Shown here: positions 3,512-48,561 of the stretch, piece by piece
How the letters are laid out: the number at the start of each line of letters is the position of its first letter
Numbering within the stretch: the first letter of the stretch is position 1
UHGV virus genome: UHGV-0382128
Reading direction: 5' to 3' (one strand)
Length of the DNA stretch: 64,000 bases
DNA from: a virus
The notes under the pieces: generated by a model
What the model saw: the letters and a program-made list of their open reading frames with translations, nothing else
Database searches by the model: none
What the model was told of the DNA's origin: nothing
Made by a program: the position numbers and the translations under genes

Positions 3512-4420
3512 TTACTGGTTGTTTATCGGTTTGGTGTTTTGGTTAAGTAATGTGTCGTATGCCATGATAAAAGCGTCTTTACGTTTTGCCACGTCACATT
3601 TCTTAATTAGCCCACCTAAACGGGAGCGGTTAAATATCACGTTCTCTAAGCATGTGCGGGTAATAACAAAGAGAGACGGTGGATATTCGATGGCGCTGGT
3701 AACAAGTTGACGATCGTAGCTAATAAAGCTACCCAGGCTCGTTGCCAGCATACCTTGCAAACTTACTACGCTGAGATCTTTTAAGCGTGCGGTAATGTCT
3801 GCAGCTTTTACCATCTCGACAAATTCACCGATATTGCGTGGGAACAGGAACTCTGTGTTTCCGGTAACAGTTTCAAAAATCTGTGGTCCGAGGCGAAGTT
3901 CACGTTCTAACTGTTGCTGCATTCTTAACATTTTAACTTCATCTTCGAAGTTGTTGTAGAACTGTCCTACGGAGAACAGGGCAGCGAGTGCCTTGACTTG
4001 ACCACTTTGATATGGAGCAAGTGCGTAGGTGTGTTCAATTGCATCGCTAATCCACCTGCTGAAGATCTCATGGTGATAAGACATACGTGACATTAATGCA
4101 CCGAGCTTATCATTGTTCCGTTTCCACACTAATTCCCAACGTGCTTCGTCGAGACGTAATTGGTGCTCAATGGGGTTACGGATTTTCAGTACGCCGTTTT
4201 TATCGAGCGTAGTGAAAGTTCGTGCGTCAACGTACACGTCATCACCGATGACGATCGGTAACGGGAACGGTTTTACATCGGCGGTTTCGATAACGTAATG
4301 TACTTCGTCAGACTGTGCAACGGTCTGATTGACTTTACGCGCCAGTTCCAAATCCGCGTGTAAGCGGGTAAGGTCTATGGTATTAAACGGAGTACCGTTG
4401 TAAGCGTTTTTGAGTGCCAT
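3512..4420 (-). CDS. Hypothetical protein (302 aa)
   Basis: ORF with ATG start, 62-bp divergent spacer to the 4483 gene; function unknown. Confidence 0.55.
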   Translation of the reverse strand: MALKNAYNGTPFNTIDLTRLHADLELARKVNQTVAQSDEVHYVIETADVKPFPLPIVIGDDVYVDARTFTTLDKNGVLKIRNPIEHQLRLDEARWELVWKRNNDKLGALMSRMSYHHEIFSRWISDAIEHTYALAPYQSGQVKALAALFSVGQFYNNFEDEVKMLRMQQQLERELRLGPQIFETVTGNTEFLFPRNIGEFVEMVKAADITARLKDLSVVSLQGMLATSLGSFISYDRQLVTSAIEYPPSLFVITRTCLENVIFNRSRLGGLIKKCDVAKRKDAFIMAYDTLLNQNTKPINNQ

Positions 4421-33109: not shown

Positions 33110-33406
33110 TTACTTAAAATCACGTTTGGCCTTGCTAATGATTTGAGATATTCTGCTTGGCGTCACTCCGTGTATTTCGGCCAATTTCTTGTTACTTAGG
33201 CCACCCAATTTACCAACAAGAATATTCAATACACGTAAGTCTTTTAACGTTGCCGAAATCTTCTCTAAGATTTCGATATCAGCTTGATCAAACTTACCTT
33301 TAGTCTGTAATGCTATCCCAGCACGCTCAGTAACAGTTTTTAGCTCAGCTAATCGACTAATGCCGAAAGAAGTTAACTCCACGTACGATTTCTCATTAAT
33401 CATCAT
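33110..33406 (-). CDS. Small helix-turn-helix protein resembling sigma-70 region 4 (98 aa); candidate transcription factor
   Basis: C-terminal LSNKKLAEIHGVTPSRISQIISKAKRDF resembles the region-4 HTH consensus (cf. ...LEEVG..FGVTRERIRQIE.KAL). Confidence 0.4.
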   Translation of the reverse strand: MMINEKSYVELTSFGISRLAELKTVTERAGIALQTKGKFDQADIEILEKISATLKDLRVLNILVGKLGGLSNKKLAEIHGVTPSRISQIISKAKRDFK

Positions 33407-33413
33407 GTACCCC

Positions 33414-34448
33414 TTAGACAGCTATGGGAGCTTTAATTGTGTCGTGTGATTGATACCCAACCAATTCGAAGTCTTCGTATTTGTAATCGAAGATGGAATC
33501 AGGTTTACGTTTGATAACCAGTTTAGGTAGCGGGTAAGGTTCGCGAGTAAGTTGTAGTTTTGCCTGCTCCAGATGGTTAGAATACAGATGAACGTCTACA
33601 CCACTATAAACCAACTCGTCTGGAACCATGTTCAACTGCTGTGCAATCATGTGAGTTAACAACGCGTACGAAGCGACGTTAAATGGCGCGCCGAGTAGGT
33701 AATCGTTGCTCCGCATCATGTAAAAACATGAAAGCTTCCGACGTGGAATGTCCTCACGATCTAAAATTTCATGAAGTCGCTCTTCATCATCAATATCTTC
33801 GTGATTAATAAGCGGTGCGCTCGCAAATTTTTCCGGTTCGTTTACTTCGTACCAATCCAGTCGTTCAAGCAACGTCATTTCCGTTGTGTAGAATTGGAAA
33901 TAGTTGTGGCATGGGTTAAGTGCCATATCGTCCAGGTCACCTACATTCCAGGCACTAACAATAATACGACGGGAGTCAGGGTCTTCACGAAGTTGCTGGA
34001 TAACTTTACTGATCTGGTCATGTGCTTTTTCATAGACCAAATACGTCGTACCGTCTTCCTTCATATTCCCAATATACTTGTAACCCCGCTGCATTAGTTG
34101 TTGTGTACGTCTTACGTCATGACACTCCACAACTTTACAGTCGCGCCATTCACGCCATTGTTTACCATAAACTGGTCCTAAGTTCCCCTCTTCATCACTC
34201 CATTCGTTCCAAATTTTTACCCCGTTCTCTTGCAGGTACTTCACGTTAGTGTCACCATTTAAGAACCACAGCAGTTCATGAATGATACTTTTCAGGTGAA
34301 CCTTTTTCGTAGTAACTAATGGGAAACCTTCTTTTAGGTCGAAACGTAGTTGGCGACCAAATACAGAAAGTGTCCCTACGCCTGTACGGTCTTTCTTGAC
34401 AACACCGTTATCTAGAATGTCTTGCATTAACGCTAAATACTGTTTCAT
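33414..34448 (-). CDS. thyA: Thymidylate synthase (344 aa) with two insertions
   Basis: Near-identical blocks to E. coli ThyA (MKQYL.LMQ..L..G....[53 protein letters not shown]). Two in-frame insertions of roughly 33 and 46 aa. Confidence 0.9.
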
Positions 34449-34762
34449 TTGTTATTCTCCATACGTTTCGTTAAAATGTCTAAATTACGTTGCGCTTGCT
34501 CAGGACTAAAAATAATGTTTTCCTGGCTATACGTTACATGGAAATGTTTTTTGTTAACAATCTCAACCTTAAGGCCACGAACTTCGAATTGCCGTTTAGC
34601 CTCTTCAACCTTTTTTGGTGAGATTCTAAGAAGACCTGGAAATAGTTCGTCTGCAGGAACGTAGTATTTGATTTCCTTAGTTTCGGGAATTAATTCGATC
34701 CTATCTAAACTGACGCTTATGATTTCGTCAATCTTTTTCTTTATATTGTCGTTCACAGTCAT
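34445..34762 (-). CDS. Hypothetical protein (105 aa)
   Basis: ORF overlapping thyA by 4 nt. Confidence 0.45.
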
Positions 34763-35070
34763 CAGATTTTGTCCTTTTCGAGTTCAGTTAAAATTTCAAA
34801 CAGGTCTGCGTTGGACTGCAGTACGATTTCACTGCCTTCTGCTACAACAGTAATTAAAGGCTTCTTACCACGTAGCAAGAACTCCCAACGCATTGTTCTT
34901 ACGTGGCTGTCGAGTAACTGTTTTAATTTGTGGTTAACTTCAACTTCCAATTTGCCCAGTAACTGTGGTGTAATGCTTTCACCTGAGTTTTTGTTATAAA
35001 GTGTACGCACTAAAGAACGTAAAGAATAGCCAATGCACTGCGAAATTGCCCAACCCGAATAGTTTTCCAT
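34762..35070 (-). CDS. Hypothetical protein (102 aa)
   Basis: ORF only. Confidence 0.45.
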   Translation of the reverse strand: MENYSGWAISQCIGYSLRSLVRTLYNKNSGESITPQLLGKLEVEVNHKLKQLLDSHVRTMRWEFLLRGKKPLITVVAEGSEIVLQSNADLFEILTELEKDKI

Positions 35071-35071
35071 G

Positions 35072-35617
35072 TTAATCCTTCAAAATGTCTTTAAGTTTTA
35101 GTTTTGTATAGAACGGAGAACTACTTAGTTCTTCTGTCCAACTTATACGTCCGTTCTGTAGAACCCGGTCGAAGATTAGGCCGTTCATCTTTACAATTCT
35201 GGCCAATTGATAAAAGAGTGTCGCGAGATGTAGACGACGCTCCATTTGTGCGCGAGCGGTACAACTTCGTACCGCTTTGATAGCAAGTACCGCTTCTGGC
35301 ATCAACGTAACCGCGATTGACTCAGGATGTTCGTTTTTCCATTTCTTAATGGCTAGTAGTCGGTGTAGTGATTTTTCAAGGGGACGTAAATCCCCGTTAT
35401 TCATCACGTAAACTAGAGCAGCAATATCCCACAAGGCGTTACCCACCGCTTTAGCAACAAACAACCCGTCGTGTGATGTCGTGGATTCACAGACTTTGCC
35501 AATACTTCCATAAACACGTGCAGTCCATGCGTCTGTCTGTTCGCCGGGTTTTATACCCGCGTTATCCAGAAAGTGTTTAAACGCATTAACGTGATCAGTT
35601 AACTGTATTTGTTTCAT
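35072..35617 (-). CDS. Hypothetical protein (181 aa)
   Basis: ORF only. Confidence 0.45.
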   Translation of the reverse strand: MKQIQLTDHVNAFKHFLDNAGIKPGEQTDAWTARVYGSIGKVCESTTSHDGLFVAKAVGNALWDIAALVYVMNNGDLRPLEKSLHRLLAIKKWKNEHPESIAVTLMPEAVLAIKAVRSCTARAQMERRLHLATLFYQLARIVKMNGLIFDRVLQNGRISWTEELSSSPFYTKLKLKDILKD

Positions 35618-35631
35618 TTCCGATACCCGAT

Positions 35632-36147
35632 TTAGTCACGAGACTTTATTTTAAGGTACGCAACCGCAGCTCCCACGATTGCAATACCGGCGCCCCAACC
35701 TATCTTTTCTATTACACTCATATCGTCCCATCTTTTCTCTTCGTTACGTCGTTTGGCCTCGTCTGCCCGTTCTCTCCACATCGCTTCGCGTTCCAGACAG
35801 CTGGGATTTATTTCCTCTTCACAACGACGTTTCCGCTCTTCTTCCCTAACCAGTTCTTCTAAATAGAGCCTCGTTTCTTCCACAGCTTGTTCATAGACGT
35901 CTATGCGTTCGGGAAGAATTCTCCTGTGAGCGGCTTTGTTGCGAACGGAAGCAATCATGTGGAGTTTCCGTTCGTATTTTGGTTCGAGAAGATGAGCTAT
36001 GCTTTTGGTCTTCCCATGAAGCCCATGACCGGTACCGCCGAGTTTTTCCACAAGTTCTTCTACAGAAATTGCAAGATCGAGAATATATCCACGCATAATT
36101 GTTTCTCCGCTTAAACGCAGTCTTGGGAGACATAAGTCTGTTCCCAA
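35632..36147 (-). CDS. Small protein with HEPN-like Rx4H motif and C-terminal transmembrane helix (171 aa; may start at the internal Met near 36096)
   Basis: ...LHMIASVRNKAAHRRILPER... matches R-N-x-x-x-H; then a highly charged Glu/Arg/Lys-rich segment and hydrophobic IGWGAGIAIVGAAVAYL. Confidence 0.3.
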   Translation of the reverse strand: MGTDLCLPRLRLSGETIMRGYILDLAISVEELVEKLGGTGHGLHGKTKSIAHLLEPKYERKLHMIASVRNKAAHRRILPERIDVYEQAVEETRLYLEELVREEERKRRCEEEINPSCLEREAMWRERADEAKRRNEEKRWDDMSVIEKIGWGAGIAIVGAAVAYLKIKSRD

Positions 36148-36156
36148 CTGTAAAAA

Positions 36157-36525
36157 TCATTTCAACAAAACAAGATGAATTTGGTATTCGTCATCAGCAG
36201 GAGAAGAATAATCGCCAGCTTCAGGTAACGTTATATCTCCCAGTAGAGCGTGGAAGGGTAATCCACGAGCAGCCTCAACTATTCGTACAAGCGGAAAACC
36301 TGTTCTTTTAATCCAATTGTAATCAACAAACATAACACCACCAGGACTTCCCGAACCTTCCCACACACGAATTTCCACAGTCTTTCCCGAAAAGTTGGCA
36401 AGTACGGTGCGTAGTCCTAATCGCACATAACTGGGAAAGGGTACTTCAATAACTTGTTTTGGTAAAACAAATTCAGGGAATTTAAAACCGAAACCTTTGG
36501 GTGTACTAAAAAACTGAGCTTGCAT
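36157..36525 (-). CDS. Hypothetical protein (122 aa)
   Basis: ORF with SD aaggagaa, first gene after a terminator. Confidence 0.45.
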   Translation of the reverse strand: MQAQFFSTPKGFGFKFPEFVLPKQVIEVPFPSYVRLGLRTVLANFSGKTVEIRVWEGSGSPGGVMFVDYNWIKRTGFPLVRIVEAARGLPFHALLGDITLPEAGDYSSPADDEYQIHLVLLK

Positions 36526-36544: not shown

Positions 36545-36585
36545 AAAAAATGAAAATACCCTACTCCTGTCTAGGAGTAGGGTAG
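36545..36585 (-). terminator. Rho-independent terminator (CCCTACTCC family)
   Basis: Stem accctactcc / ggagtagggt, loop tgtcta; T-run on minus strand, then SD and the next start. Confidence 0.7.
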
Positions 36586-38090: not shown

Positions 38091-39381
38091 AATAGTCTTC
38101 CACGATTTTATCGGTAGACTGGTAACTTACACTGCCTGCAGCAATCACGTAATTACGTTTCTCAGTGGTCAGTAGTGCCTGAATCGCATTTACGCCCGCG
38201 TAGGTGTAAAGTTTAAGTTCAGTCATCTCCGGCGTGATGTTCTTCGCTTTGTCCCACTTTGCATCTAATCCTTTAAATAGTGTTAATAGGCGAGTACCAT
38301 ACGTTTTGAATCTGACACCAGGTTCAACCCGAAGGTTAGCCATGAGGTTTTGGATAACGGTGGCTGCGATCTGAGTCCCTTGTCCCGGTTGCAGTTTATC
38401 CAGATAGTATTCCGTTGAATCCAGATTACCTGTCGCTGCCGCCTGAATCATCAGCTCGCCGTACAGTACCTCTTTTGCTTGTGTGTCGGTAATCGCTTGA
38501 AGCATCGGCTCAATTTTAGCCGGTAAACCATAACTGTTCAGTTTGGTAGAGAGGCCATAAATCAGCGCCGAAGAGGTATTAATGTCTAACGCGGAGAAAC
38601 TGTTGCTGCCTTTAAAGCTATTAATCAGGTTATCGATGGCTAAGAAGTCATCTAAGTCTTTGTAGCTGTCGAAAGTATGTTGTACGTCATCAACGATCGA
38701 AGTGATTTGATAACGCATACTGTTGACTTCAGACATAAACCCGTTGACTTCTTGACTAACTTCCGAGGGGAGTTTAGCCAGTTGTCCAGCAATGTTCATC
38801 GTCCCTTCGAGACGTTTTTTCACCGAGTTAAAGTCAGTACCGATACCGGATAAAACGGAGTCGGTTAAGCTGCCGATGCTGTCCCACCCTTTACCTAACA
38901 GCTTCCCCATCCCACCTGGACTTAGGTAGTCTAGTGCTTTTAGGCCATCTTCATCCTTTTTCTTAAAGGGTTCAGAAACGTCACGCTTTTGTGGGTCGAG
39001 GACAGGAAGCGTTTCTTTGGTATTAGATGCAAAACCGGGAACCTTTTGTCCTGGCGACACCCCGGAGGCTGAACTCCCCGCAGTCTTAGTTCCCCCAACA
39101 CTGGCGGTATCGCTACCGCCAAAAAGGTTACCAATTTTGCTGGTCAGCTCGTTGCCGCCGCTAATGAGTTTGTTGAAAGTTTCACCAGCGCGGTCTGATA
39201 GTCGGCTGACGCTATCGACCGTGTTCTTAATACCACGCTCCGCATTTTCCACTGTTGTTTGTACGCGGTTTGTGGCGCTCTTTGCCGTATTAACGGAATT
39301 ATCGATTGCCGACTGACCTTTATTTATCTGACTGGTTATTTGGTCGATTTTCATTCTGGTCTCCAATTTGGTATTCGTCAA
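38080..39381 (-). CDS. Hypothetical protein (433 aa), Ser/Gly/Thr-rich with coiled-coil-like N-terminus; possibly virion internal protein
   Basis: Composition only; start may be the downstream Met (~39354). Confidence 0.45.
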   Translation of the reverse strand: MTNTKLETRMKIDQITSQINKGQSAIDNSVNTAKSATNRVQTTVENAERGIKNTVDSVSRLSDRAGETFNKLISGGNELTSKIGNLFGGSDTASVGGTKTAGSSASGVSPGQKVPGFASNTKETLPVLDPQKRDVSEPFKKKDEDGLKALDYLSPGGMGKLLGKGWDSIGSLTDSVLSGIGTDFNSVKKRLEGTMNIAGQLAKLPSEVSQEVNGFMSEVNSMRYQITSIVDDVQHTFDSYKDLDDFLAIDNLINSFKGSNSFSALDINTSSALIYGLSTKLNSYGLPAKIEPMLQAITDTQAKEVLYGELMIQAAATGNLDSTEYYLDKLQPGQGTQIAATVIQNLMANLRVEPGVRFKTYGTRLLTLFKGLDAKWDKAKNITPEMTELKLYTYAGVNAIQALLTTEKRNYVIAAGSVSYQSTDKIVEDYFAI

Positions 39382-40165
39382 GGTTTACCGTGACCTGAAC
39401 TTCGTAGATCTTATTGTCTTTCTGACGCCTTAAGGTCAAAAGGATTTCGAAACTACGAACATCAATTGCCTTGAGTACCCTCATAAACCATTTCCAGGAA
39501 AACTTCTTTTTTAACCTTAGATTGTGCTGCATATTGTGCCGCAAATCATTTCGTTTCGACGGCGTCTGCTCACAGTTAGCGGGATCGTTAACGAAGTTTG
39601 TGGAAAGACGGTACCACCAATCCGCATTCATTTTCATGTTTGCGAAGATAGTCCAAGTTAACCGAGATAACGGATGTACCATCATCTTTGCGGTCTCACC
39701 ACAGTTCTGGAAATAACGGTTCAGTTGCGCCGTTGCAGACTCCTTAGGTCGTTCGTCGTTATCTTCGAACAAATCCCGAGCGAGATCTTCACGCACGCGT
39801 GTGGTAACTTCAGATACGGTTTTTGTTTTGAAGTGTCCTCGGTAAGTGGTTACACAAATCCGCAGTGTTTCCACTCCGGTAATCACCAACCCTTCTGTAA
39901 AACCTCGCCAGGTAAGATCGACAGGTAGTGCAGGGATGTTACCTGAACTCAGCTTCGTGGAGATACGTTGTATTCGATCGTCCATCGTTGCTTTTGAACG
40001 TGTTTTAAATTCTGGAGACAGAATATGTTTGGCGACGGCGAGTTTGTAATCCGAAGGCTTCCATCCGATCAATTCTTTATAATTCCAATAAAGCGTTTGA
40101 AGTGGTCCGCCAGCACGTTCGTCTTCAGCGTCCACGACCACACTTACTTTTTTGCTATCCATCAC
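39320..40165 (-). CDS. Hypothetical protein (281 aa)
   Basis: ORF only. Confidence 0.45.
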   Translation of the reverse strand: MMDSKKVSVVVDAEDERAGGPLQTLYWNYKELIGWKPSDYKLAVAKHILSPEFKTRSKATMDDRIQRISTKLSSGNIPALPVDLTWRGFTEGLVITGVETLRICVTTYRGHFKTKTVSEVTTRVREDLARDLFEDNDERPKESATAQLNRYFQNCGETAKMMVHPLSRLTWTIFANMKMNADWWYRLSTNFVNDPANCEQTPSKRNDLRHNMQHNLRLKKKFSWKWFMRVLKAIDVRSFEILLTLRRQKDNKIYEVQVTVNLDEYQIGDQNENRPNNQSDK

Positions 40166-48075: not shown

Positions 48076-48561
48076 CTATAGTGACACGTAAATAGGATAA
48101 TTAGCTTTCAGCCACTCCCATAGCTGTAAGGAAAGTAGGTTTTCATTACGTTCGATGATTTCCATGATTTCGTCCAAGTTAGAATCTTCAACCCAAATCC
48201 GGGTATAAAATTTTTCCCATTCCGGTTCTGTATAAGGGACTAGAGGAGTAGGGAATCGCTCCATGTGGTACGCATCAGAAACTTTCTTTAAGAACTCGTC
48301 GCGACCATGGCGTAGGCGTTGCCGAACGTCTGTTTCTGTTATGCGCTTGCTTGATAGATCGGAGAAGTCAAATAGGCTAAATATGTATTGCGTTAGACAC
48401 CGAGAAGAAAAGTAGGACGCGGCATAAGCCGCCATCCAAGGAGTGTCTGCAACCAACGGAGTCAACTTTTCTTCAATTTCTTTTCTTACACGTGTTTCGT
48501 TATTGAGAAATTCATGTACGATATCGCAGTTACGAATATCGAAGATATGATTTAAGTTCAT
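48076..48561 (-). CDS. Paralog family B, member 2 (161 aa)
   Basis: See family B member 1. Confidence 0.5.
   Translation of the reverse strand: MNLNHIFDIRNCDIVHEFLNNETRVRKEIEEKLTPLVADTPWMAAYAASYFSSRCLTQYIFSLFDFSDLSSKRITETDVRQRLRHGRDEFLKKVSDAYHMERFPTPLVPYTEPEWEKFYTRIWVEDSNLDEIMEIIERNENLLSLQLWEWLKANYPIYVSL

What the first reader, a model, noticed from the sequence alone, without database searches (positions are those of the whole stretch)
35632..36147. Small membrane-anchored protein with a HEPN-like Rx4H motif
The 171-aa product contains SVRNKAAHRRI, matching the HEPN RNase signature R-[NQ]-x-x-x-H, followed by a highly charged Glu/Arg/Lys-rich segment and a C-terminal hydrophobic helix. A HEPN-like RNase tethered to the membrane in a phage would be atypical and could be a toxin or anti-defence effector, but a single short motif is weak evidence.
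Basis: inference. Interest (0 to 1): 0.4.

Follow-up and report, generated by a model that had tools for sequence, protein, structure and literature searches.

The report
Membrane-anchored mini-HEPN RNase in jumbo phage
A small gene of a giant Salmonella/E. coli phage encodes a miniature HEPN-type RNA-cutting domain held at the cell membrane by a C-terminal anchor; it belongs to a widespread but unstudied protein family, and its role (probably in conflicts with rival phages or the host) is untested.

Summary
The ORF is real, but the product is probably 154 aa (ATG at 36096 with a GGAG Shine-Dalgarno), not 171 aa. The short motif alone is weak: R[NQ]x3H occurs 4 times in the window's ORFs against about 1.9 expected.

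What supports the HEPN reading:
- R52-N53-x3-H57 is invariant in all phage homologues. In 46 remote homologous domains N53 and H57 are invariant and R52 is at least 90% conserved.
- Remote homologues hit HEPN-clan Pfam families (DUF4145, RiboL-PSP, Apea, Swt1).
- An AlphaFold2 model (pLDDT 91) places the motif at the end of helix 3, as in canonical HEPN domains.

The protein is a minimal roughly 85-aa HEPN domain, a variable charged stalk, and a Gly/Ala-rich C-terminal transmembrane helix. This tail-anchored architecture recurs in at least 116 bacterial species, mostly Planctomycetota and Gammaproteobacteria, and on prophages and a small plasmid. It has no conserved partner gene and meets no curated family cut-off.

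The window most likely comes from a 'Bapsvirus', a Seoulvirus-like persistent jumbo phage. There the gene fills a variable slot and evolves about five times faster than its flanks. RNase activity and biological role remain inferred.

The parts
35632..36096 (-). CDS of the 154-aa tail-anchored mini-HEPN protein (stop codon 35632..35634).
36105..36108 (-). Shine-Dalgarno GGAG, 8 nt upstream of the ATG.
   Evidence: Read directly from the sequence.
35833..36096 (-). Minimal HEPN domain, residues 1 to about 88. Helices 2-18, 25-32 and 39-57, then the start of helix 65+. Invariant E13 and the G20-x2-G23-x-G25-L-H loop lie here.
35926..35943 (-). Predicted catalytic motif R52-N53-K54-A55-A56-H57 (Rx4H with a polar residue after R), at the C-terminal end of helix 3.
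   Evidence: R52, N53 and H57 are invariant in 20 phage homologues. In 46 remote domains N53 and H57 are invariant and R52 is at least 90% conserved. The position matches the HEPN definition in PMC3710099.
35731..35832 (-). Variable Glu/Arg/Lys-rich stalk or linker, residues 89-122. It is predicted as a continuation of helix 4 and is rich in indels among phage variants (products of 136 to 191 aa).
   Evidence: highest dN here: 0.28 against 0.04 in the HEPN domain for window vs L009.
35704..35730 (-). Juxtamembrane motif W123-D-D-M-S-V-I-E-K131 (W-x-D/E-x-S/T-x-x-E-K).
   Evidence: Shared with non-phage relatives from Gammaproteobacteria and prophages. W123 is invariant in the phage clade.
35647..35703 (-). 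Gly/Ala-rich C-terminal transmembrane helix I132-I150, followed by only K-S-R-D.
   Evidence: Hydropathy, helix 128-153 in the model, and conservation of the architecture: 85 of 116 genomes have one C-terminal TM segment.
36157..36525 (-). Upstream 122-aa orphan gene that diverges together with the HEPN-TM gene. It is a possible functional partner but this is unproven.
   Evidence: Present in all 8 Bapsvirus-like loci examined. 77% identical in L009, where the flanks are 98-99.5% identical. dN/dS 0.24-0.43. Restricted to this phage clade. No Pfam or PHROG hit. Structure model unreliable, pLDDT 62.
36557..36584 (-). Terminator-like hairpin (12-bp stem, 4-nt loop, then UUUUCAUUUU) between the conserved 219-aa gene and the 122-aa gene. 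It probably marks the start of the transcription unit that contains the HEPN-TM gene.
   Evidence: RNA fold -20.6 kcal/mol, z = -4.2.

Best explanation
The gene encodes a tail-anchored, minimal HEPN ribonuclease of the DUF4145-like branch of the HEPN superfamily.

Shown here:
- A roughly 85-residue four-helix HEPN fold with the full catalytic signature: invariant N53 and H57 and near-invariant R52 at the end of helix 3, plus an invariant upstream acidic residue, E13.
- A variable charged stalk.
- A conserved Gly/Ala-rich C-terminal transmembrane helix.
- No partner gene conserved across the family.

Inferred mechanism. The C-terminal helix inserts in the inner membrane and leaves the HEPN domain in the cytoplasm on a stalk. 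Two HEPN domains must pair to form the composite Rx4H active site, as in other HEPN RNases. Pairing would be driven by the small-residue-rich TM helices and/or by local clustering. The dimer then cleaves single-stranded RNA (mRNA, tRNA or rRNA) close to the membrane, without metal ions, leaving 2',3'-cyclic phosphate ends.

Inferred role, less certain. The gene acts as a moron-like accessory weapon of this persistently infecting jumbo phage. It would stay inactive as a monomer and be activated by a membrane-proximal event, such as a rival phage injecting its genome. RNA cleavage would then exclude or abort the competitor.

My estimates: HEPN fold plus membrane anchor about 0.9; active RNase given that, about 0.7; a role in conflict between mobile elements given an active RNase, about 0.5.
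For: Motif conservation:
- R52, N53 and H57 are invariant among 20 phage homologues that differ by up to 50%.
- Among 46 remote domains at 21-40% identity, N53, H57 and E13 are invariant and R52 is at least 90% conserved.

Sequence links to HEPN:
- Remote homologues found by exhaustive HMMER (48 hits at E<=1e-3 among 1.84 billion representatives) individually match DUF4145 (12 of 47, best E 5.5e-7), HEPN_RiboL-PSP (1.2e-8), HEPN_Apea and HEPN_Swt1, and HepT-like across its motif region.

Structure:
- The AlphaFold2 model has pLDDT 91 overall and 96-98 in the domain. The motif ends helix 39-57, which is where PMC3710099 places Rx4-6H.
- Foldseek top hits are HepT toxins, probability 0.93-0.96.
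- DUF4145 is an experimentally proven RNase domain in RAZR (PMC13017515).

Architecture and dimerisation:
- Tail-anchored architecture is found in 34 of 51 representatives and 85 of 116 genomes.
- The juxtamembrane motif is shared beyond the phage clade.
- Seven of 51 representatives carry two HEPN domains in tandem. This fits a dimer as the functional unit.

Context pointing to conflict:
- The closest non-Bapsvirus relatives lie on mobile elements: a prophage moron, another prophage and a Rop-type small plasmid.
- The gene occupies a variable slot that holds an unrelated gene in SPN3US.
- It evolves with dN/dS 0.35-0.56, against 0.05-0.17 for the flanking genes in comparisons within the close clade.
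Against: - No biochemical or genetic data exist for any member of the family.
- The query reaches only 14.5 bits on DUF4145 against a cut-off of 23.1. It has no hit in PHROGs, PADLOC or NCBIfam, and a family profile finds no solved structure by sequence.
- Foldseek E-values are not significant on their own (0.19).
- The conserved acidic residue lies in helix 1 of the model, not helix 2 as described for many HEPN families.
- Membrane insertion rests on hydropathy alone. The helix is only moderately hydrophobic, and its short tail (KSRD) is basic, which does not fit the positive-inside rule for an N-in topology.
- The stalk is not a conserved coiled coil: the 136-aa variants have a short Pro/Ser-rich linker. 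The driver of dimerisation is therefore unknown.
- Most bacterial homologues sit among housekeeping genes, not in defence islands. A defence role is not a property of the family as a whole.
- dN/dS stays below 1, so positive selection is not shown.
Confidence: 0.5

Rival explanations
1. A host-directed effector, which is the first reader's 'toxin or anti-defence' idea. The membrane-tethered RNase would degrade host RNAs for the phage's own benefit. Possible targets are mRNAs being translated at the membrane, tRNAs, or RNA components of host defences. The outcome would be host shut-off or slowed host growth that favours a carrier state.
For: The molecular evidence is the same as for the best explanation. 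The phage belongs to a group found persisting in bacterial isolates (PMC12768965; bioRxiv 10.1101/2024.12.31.630880). The gene is kept in all 8 loci of the genus examined, under purifying selection. It is co-oriented and tightly packed with nucleotide-metabolism and core genes.
Against: There is no evidence on substrates or timing. The related Seoulviruses, which also persist, lack the gene. The nearest relatives are prophage and plasmid morons. Such genes more often protect the host cell from other elements than attack it.
Confidence: 0.2
2. A non-catalytic membrane tether. The HEPN domain would bind RNA, ribosomes or a nucleotide ligand without cleaving, and would localise them at the membrane. 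In bacteria this would be a housekeeping or stress function that the phage borrowed.
For: Many bacterial homologues lie in housekeeping neighbourhoods and have no partner gene. An active, unregulated RNase with no antitoxin would be dangerous to the cell. Non-catalytic HEPN domains are known (PMC3710099). Three of the seven tandem-domain members carry one degenerate motif copy (sequences).
Against: HEPN domains that lost catalysis usually lose Rx4-6H. Here N53 and H57 are invariant and R52 is at least 90% conserved across the family.
Confidence: 0.12
3. A lysis-related small membrane protein (holin, antiholin or lysis regulator) whose helical N-terminal domain only regulates membrane function.
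For: The protein is small and has a single Gly/Ala-rich TM helix with glycine-zipper-like spacing. In two prophages the homologue lies near lysis or tail genes.
Against: No endolysin or spanin lies next to it in the window. The conserved residues are the HEPN catalytic ones, not TM residues. The family is chromosomal and housekeeping-linked in many bacteria.
Confidence: 0.04
4. A chance motif in an unrelated helical protein: no HEPN domain at all.
Confidence: 0.03

Closest known systems
DUF4145-type HEPN domains (Pfam PF13643, clan CL0291), e.g. the RNase domain of RAZR / PD-T7-4
   Same: This is the best and only Pfam match of the query (profile positions 21-78 of 88). Relatives reach E 5.5e-7. 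They share the '...L-x-x-K-I...R-x-x-R-N-x-x-x-H' layout. In RAZR the domain is a proven RNase whose Arg and His are needed for defence. RAZR works as a single protein without an antitoxin (PMC13017515).
   Different: The query scores below the Pfam cut-off. It has no N-terminal zinc finger. The domain is N-terminal and shorter (about 85 aa). It carries a distinctive G-x-x-G-x-G-L-H-E-K loop and a C-terminal membrane anchor. RAZR is cytosolic and is activated by assembling around phage ring proteins.
Stand-alone HEPN proteins and HepT toxins of HEPN-MNT modules (AF0298 2hsb, TTHA0636 1wwp, YutE 1ylm, SO_3166 5yep, 7ae2)
Membrane-associated bacterial HEPN proteins predicted by Anantharaman et al. 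2013 (PMC3710099)
   Same: A cytoplasmic HEPN domain on an inner-membrane protein, proposed to process RNA at the inner face of the membrane. Their third group has an N-terminal HEPN domain followed by TM helices and comes from a planctomycete. The family found here is also most abundant in Planctomycetota. Some members carry Zn ribbons (P0086, P0088, P0096).
   Different: Group 1 has an N-terminal WP-signature TM helix. Group 2 is of the Abi2/Swt1 type with an N-terminal TM. Group 3 has two TM helices plus a C-terminal Zn ribbon. The protein here is a single-TM tail-anchored form with nothing beyond the membrane. None of these groups has been tested experimentally as far as I could find.
HEPN-TM defence system of phage-inducible chromosomal islands
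   Same: A mobile-element-borne anti-phage system that combines a HEPN domain with a transmembrane component (its existence is cited in PMC12948488).
   Different: From my own recollection (not checked here) it is a two-gene system with HEPN and TM on separate proteins. No sequence or model was available to test relatedness. The query hits no PADLOC model.
Ire1 / RNase L KEN domains and C6orf70 (eukaryotic membrane-tethered HEPN RNases)
   Same: A HEPN-superfamily RNase held at a membrane by a TM segment. Activity is switched on by dimerisation or oligomerisation in the plane of the membrane (PMC3710099, and general knowledge of Ire1).
   Different: These are eukaryotic, large, multidomain proteins with a kinase and a lumenal sensor. 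The KEN domain is circularly permuted. There is no direct sequence relationship.

Membership tests
HEPN superfamily (Pfam clan CL0291) | Four-helix up-and-down bundle fold | tested here: met
HEPN superfamily (Pfam clan CL0291) | [quoted passage not shown] | tested here: met
   R52-x4-H57 closes helix 39-57 and the loop 58-64 follows. Definition from PMC3710099. In homologues H57 is invariant and R52 invariant or at least 90% conserved.
HEPN superfamily (Pfam clan CL0291) | Polar residue (N, D or H) immediately after the conserved Arg | tested here: met
   N53 is invariant in all 20 close and 46 remote sequences.
HEPN superfamily (Pfam clan CL0291) | Second conserved acidic residue upstream (often Ex3[KR], in helix 2) | tested here: inconclusive
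   E13 is invariant but lies in helix 1 of the model.
HEPN superfamily (Pfam clan CL0291) | Metal-independent RNase activity from a composite active site in a HEPN dimer | not testable with these tools
   Indirect support only: 7 of 51 family representatives have two HEPN domains in tandem.
Pfam DUF4145 (PF13643) | Score at or above the curated gathering cut-off (23.1 bits) | tested here: not met
   The query scores 14.5 bits, E 0.039. Six of ten short relatives scored 14.2-22.7 bits and the other four had no DUF4145 match. 12 of 47 relatives match at E<=0.01, best 5.5e-7. This is a divergent sister group or sub-family at the edge of the model.
HEPN-MNT (HepT-MntA) toxin-antitoxin modules | Adjacent minimal nucleotidyltransferase antitoxin gene | tested here: not met
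   None of the ten neighbouring products has a nucleotidyltransferase domain. No neighbour is conserved in more than 9 of 116 genomes apart from one antisense-ORF artefact. The recurrent neighbours are a MoxR AAA+ ATPase and a T2SS ATPase.
RAZR / PD-T7-4 | N-terminal Cys4 zinc-finger domain fused to a C-terminal DUF4145 domain | tested here: not met
   The HEPN domain starts at residue 1 and there is no Cys4 cluster. The query has no PADLOC hit. One remote relative hit PD-T7-4 at E 0.002.
Membrane-associated HEPN group 1 of Anantharaman et al. 2013 | [quoted passage not shown] | tested here: not met
   The TM helix is C-terminal and has no WP motif. Definition.
Membrane-associated HEPN group 3 of Anantharaman et al. 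2013 | N-terminal HEPN domain, a pair of TM helices, and a C-terminal Zn ribbon | tested here: not met
   [quoted passage not shown] Some remote relatives do carry Zn-ribbon-like Cys clusters (P0086, P0088, P0096), so the two may be related.
PICI HEPN-TM defence system | Sequence relatedness to the validated HEPN and TM components | not testable with these tools
   No sequence or profile of that system was available. Only its existence could be cited.

The most novel reading that the evidence does not exclude
A nucleus-forming, persistently infecting lytic jumbo phage carries its own single-protein, antitoxin-free abortive-infection or exclusion device. A HEPN RNase would be parked as an inactive monomer on the inner membrane and switched on by clustering when a rival phage perturbs the membrane or injects its genome. 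This would protect the carrier-state cell for the resident phage. As a corollary, the hundreds of chromosomal orthologues, especially in Planctomycetota, would define an unrecognised membrane-proximal RNA-decay or stress pathway in bacteria, a prokaryotic counterpart of Ire1-like signalling.
Probability: 0.2. Interest if true: 0.65.

Novelty: new variant of a known kind. Interest (0 to 1): 0.42.

Why it matters
HEPN RNases are central effectors of CRISPR type III and VI systems, toxin-antitoxin modules and many abortive-infection systems. No membrane-anchored bacterial or phage HEPN protein has been studied experimentally, as far as I could find.

This gene gives a compact 154-aa, easily testable example. 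It also defines a family that no curated library currently captures at its cut-offs (Pfam, NCBIfam, PHROGs, PADLOC).

It sits in a newly recognised genus of jumbo phages that persist inside clinical Salmonella, E. coli and Shigella isolates. If it excludes rival phages or restrains the host, it would bear on how such 'lytic' phages coexist with their hosts and on their use in therapy. If it is only a housekeeping-type RNase borrowed from bacteria, it is still a new HEPN sub-family, but of modest interest.

Tried and rejected
- PHROGs, PADLOC and NCBIfam gave no hit for the query.
- Megablast and tblastn against 50,697 phage records found nothing. The phage clade is simply absent from that collection.
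- A family profile against all PDB sequences gave only spurious coiled-coil matches.
- BFVD viral structures gave nothing at E<0.001.
- The search for related loci could not use the remote alignment A3.
- My first hand-typed DNA pattern had a miscounted gap and found nothing. The corrected pattern worked.
- L014 from the viral scan is a chance match in an unrelated 280-aa protein.
- SPN3US gp039, at the syntenic position, is unrelated. SPN3US gp040 shows no similarity to the 122-aa neighbour by BLASTP or hhalign.
- The AlphaFold2 model of the 122-aa neighbour was too poor (pLDDT 62, other models below 40) to justify a fold search. Whether it is a partner remains open.
- A search for a conserved partner or antitoxin over 116 genomes found only lineage-specific synteny: MoxR AAA+ in 9 loci, a T2SS-type ATPase in 6. 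The RtcB seen near one Thermoguttaceae homologue did not recur as a conserved neighbour.
- A coiled-coil stalk as the dimerisation device was considered and set aside, because the linker is replaced by short Pro/Ser-rich segments in the 136-aa variants and in many bacterial members.
- A resemblance to the C-terminal anchors of E. coli ElaB/YqjD is recalled from memory only. No Pfam match supports it.

Full report
**Observation**

The ORF 35632..36147 on the minus strand is present. The TTG start is probably wrong. An ATG at 36096 is preceded by GGAG at an 8-nt spacing. The full-length database homologues aligned begin there, and PGAP calls the same start in a complete record. The product is therefore 154 aa, and the motif is R52-N53-K-A-A-H57.

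The motif alone carries little weight. R[NQ]x3H occurs four times in the 60 major ORFs of the window, against 1.9 expected by chance.

**Where the window comes from**

No phage record matches at the DNA level. The neighbouring 219-aa protein is 58% identical to SPN3US gp041 and its relatives, and gene order is conserved with SPN3US. Homologues of the target lie on contigs of about 220-226 kb from Salmonella, Shigella and E. coli sequencing projects and on IMG/VR contigs of 221-225 kb. They also occur in two complete genomes where the element is filed as a plasmid: E. coli NZ_CP173450.1 (221,873 bp) and Enterobacter ludwigii NZ_CP134650.1.

This fits the recently proposed genus 'Bapsvirus'. That genus is a Chimalliviridae lineage syntenic with Seoulvirus, found only in bacterial assemblies and suspected of carrier-state persistence (PMC12768965; see also bioRxiv 10.1101/2024.12.31.630880).

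In SPN3US the slot between the gp041 and gp038 homologues holds two unrelated small genes, gp040 and gp039. The target is thus an accessory gene in a variable slot.

**Is it a HEPN domain?**

Sequence evidence:
- The query has one sub-threshold Pfam hit, DUF4145 (14.5 bits against a cut-off of 23.1). DUF4145 belongs to the HEPN clan (PMC3710099).
- Within the phage clade (products of 136-191 aa, down to 50% identity), R52, N53, K54 and H57 are invariant.
- An exhaustive HMMER search of 1.84 billion cluster representatives returned 48 proteins at E<=1e-3.
- In an alignment of 46 of their domains (21-40% identical to the query), only E13, N53 and H57 are invariant. R52, G20, G23, G25 and A49 are at least 90% conserved.
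- Scanned one by one, these relatives match DUF4145 (12 of 47, best 5.5e-7), HEPN_RiboL-PSP (best 1.2e-8), HEPN_Apea, HEPN_Swt1 and, for one, the motif region of HepT-like.

Structure evidence:
- An AlphaFold2 model built with these sequences is confident (mean pLDDT 91; 96-98 over residues 1-90). It has helices 2-18, 25-32, 39-57 and 65-124, plus a terminal helix 128-153.
- The motif closes helix 3 and leads into the loop to helix 4. Anantharaman et al. place Rx4-6H at exactly this position.
- Foldseek also ranks HepT toxins first, with probability 0.93-0.96 but non-significant E-values.

**The rest of the protein**

After the domain comes a segment that varies in length and sequence. In this variant it is Glu/Arg/Lys-rich and predicted as one long helix. 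In others it is longer and partly Thr/Ser-rich, and in the 136-aa variants it is short and Pro/Ser-rich.

Next comes a conserved W-D-D-M-S-x-I-E-K motif and a Gly/Ala-rich stretch of 17 uncharged residues. Only K-S-R-D follows.

The juxtamembrane motif is shared with non-phage relatives from Pseudomonas and other Gammaproteobacteria. The whole architecture was therefore inherited as one piece, not assembled in the phage.

**The family at large**

- A profile search returned 215 proteins, mostly 110-150 aa. None had a precomputed Pfam domain, and nearly all were named 'hypothetical'.
- A strict back-translated pattern (GLHEK, 22 residues, RNKxxH) matched 116 of 185,579 species-representative genomes. 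Most are Planctomycetota (Gemmata, Phycisphaerae, Thermoguttaceae, Tepidisphaera and others). Gammaproteobacteria, Acidobacteriota and other phyla are also represented.
- 85 of the 116 have exactly one TM segment C-terminal to an N-terminal HEPN domain. The median length is 137 aa.
- 34 of 51 cluster representatives pass a stringent hydropathy test for a TM segment, and 7 of 51 carry two HEPN domains in tandem.
- No neighbouring gene is conserved. The most frequent neighbours are a MoxR-type AAA+ ATPase (9 loci) and a T2SS-type ATPase (6 loci), which reflects lineage-specific synteny. Individual contexts are heterogeneous.
- The family is therefore a solo gene with no antitoxin-like partner.
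- The relatives closest to the phage protein lie on mobile elements. P0059 (38% identity, same architecture) is a moron between tail and lysis genes of a prophage. Another member lies between the lysis region and the integrase of a prophage. P0058 (58% identity, tandem domains) is on a Rop-type small plasmid contig.

**Dynamics at the phage locus**

In contig L009 the flanking genes are 98-99.5% identical in protein to those of the window. The HEPN-TM protein is 66% identical and the upstream 122-aa protein 77%.

Pairwise dN/dS within the close clade is 0.05-0.17 for the flanks, 0.24-0.43 for the 122-aa gene and 0.35-0.56 for the HEPN-TM gene. Non-synonymous change is concentrated in the linker.

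The gene is present in all eight loci of the genus that I examined. It is thus maintained under selection but evolves about five times faster than the core genes, together with its upstream neighbour. That fits a conflict-related accessory module, but it also fits simply weaker constraint. No comparison exceeded dN/dS of 1.

A strong terminator-like hairpin (-20.6 kcal/mol, z = -4.2) lies just upstream of the 122-aa gene. The pair therefore probably opens a transcription unit that runs on toward thyA.

**Mechanism**

Shown: a HEPN fold with the complete catalytic signature, a C-terminal hydrophobic anchor, no partner gene, and a mobile-element association of the nearest relatives.

Inferred from established HEPN biochemistry (metal-independent cleavage by a composite site formed by two Rx4-6H motifs in a dimer; PMC3710099 and PMC13017515):
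- The protein sits in the inner membrane with the HEPN domain in the cytoplasm.
- It is inactive until two domains pair.
- It then cuts single-stranded RNA near the membrane.

The tandem-domain relatives support a dimeric unit. What triggers pairing is unknown.

I consider a role in excluding or aborting rival phages the most likely (about 0.35 overall). This is by analogy with prophage- and satellite-borne single-protein HEPN defences such as RAZR, HepS and the PICI HEPN-TM system. A host-directed role comes second, and a non-catalytic tether third.

**Comparison with what is known**

The protein works like a DUF4145-type HEPN RNase and belongs to the HEPN superfamily by fold and motif. It fails the curated cut-off of PF13643. 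It also lacks the defining features of HEPN-MNT modules (no MNT gene), of RAZR (no zinc finger), and of the three membrane-associated HEPN groups sketched in 2013 (TM helices differ in number and position, and there is no Zn ribbon). It may be related to the third of those groups.

I file it as a new variant of a known kind: a tail-anchored mini-HEPN family. It is unrecognised by current libraries and is seen here for the first time in a lytic jumbo phage.

**Limits**

There is no experimental evidence for any member of the family. Membrane insertion and topology rest on hydropathy alone. The basic C-terminal tail is at odds with a simple positive-inside reading. The structure is a prediction. 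The role of the 122-aa neighbour is unresolved, because its model was unreliable.

Noticed in passing
whole window; records NZ_CP173450.1 and NZ_CP134650.1: The window matches a Seoulvirus-like jumbo phage of about 222-226 kb that is absent from the phage isolate collection. It is present as circular 'plasmid' records in complete E. coli and Enterobacter ludwigii genomes, and on many Salmonella/Shigella contigs. This fits the proposed persistent genus 'Bapsvirus'.
   Followed up: partly
window 36557..36584 (-): A 12-bp GC-rich hairpin followed by a U-run (-20.6 kcal/mol, z = -4.2) lies directly after the stop codon of the conserved 219-aa gene. The palindrome is also present in related contigs L007 and L008.
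   Followed up: partly
window 36157..36525 (-): An orphan 122-aa protein restricted to this phage clade. It has a 5-residue indel polymorphism and elevated dN/dS, and it diverges in step with the HEPN-TM gene. It has no family hit and its structure model is poor.
   Followed up: partly
window 35072..35617 and 34762..35070 (-): Two adjacent ORFs (181 and 102 aa) match the N-terminal and C-terminal parts of one PHROG family (phrog_10269, 299 positions). In SPN3US this is a single 289-aa gene, gp038. The split is conserved in all related contigs, so it is a gene fission and not a sequencing error.
   Followed up: partly
window 33110..34762 (-): Thymidylate synthase is 344 aa, with about 80 extra residues relative to the 266-position Pfam model. 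It is flanked by small ORFs that come and go between otherwise near-identical phages. The 105-aa ORF 34445..34762 is missing in L008, L009 and L024. The 98-aa HTH ORF 33110..33406 is found only in L010.
   Followed up: no
L144 (contig DAJLSO010000139.1, 3.6 kb): A small contig carrying a Rop (ColE1-type copy-control) gene also carries a gene with two slightly diverged tandem copies of the same mini-HEPN domain, 58% identical to the phage protein. The gene is cut by the contig end.
   Followed up: no
proteins P0075, P0090, P0102: In three of the seven tandem two-HEPN relatives, one copy has lost part of the R-N-x3-H motif while the other keeps it. This hints at asymmetric pseudo-dimers.
   Followed up: no
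L002-L005, and L039, L056-L058, L085, L101, L111, L132, L138: In Thermoguttaceae and some other Planctomycetota the family gene lies directly downstream of a MoxR-type AAA+ ATPase. In the Thermoguttaceae contigs L002 and L005 an RtcB RNA ligase gene also lies about 1.2 kb downstream. This is lineage-specific synteny of unknown meaning.
   Followed up: partly
window 3512..4420, 39320..40165, 48076..48561 (-): Three other ORFs also contain an R[NQ]x3H string. They were not examined further and, given the expected count, are probably chance occurrences.
   Followed up: no
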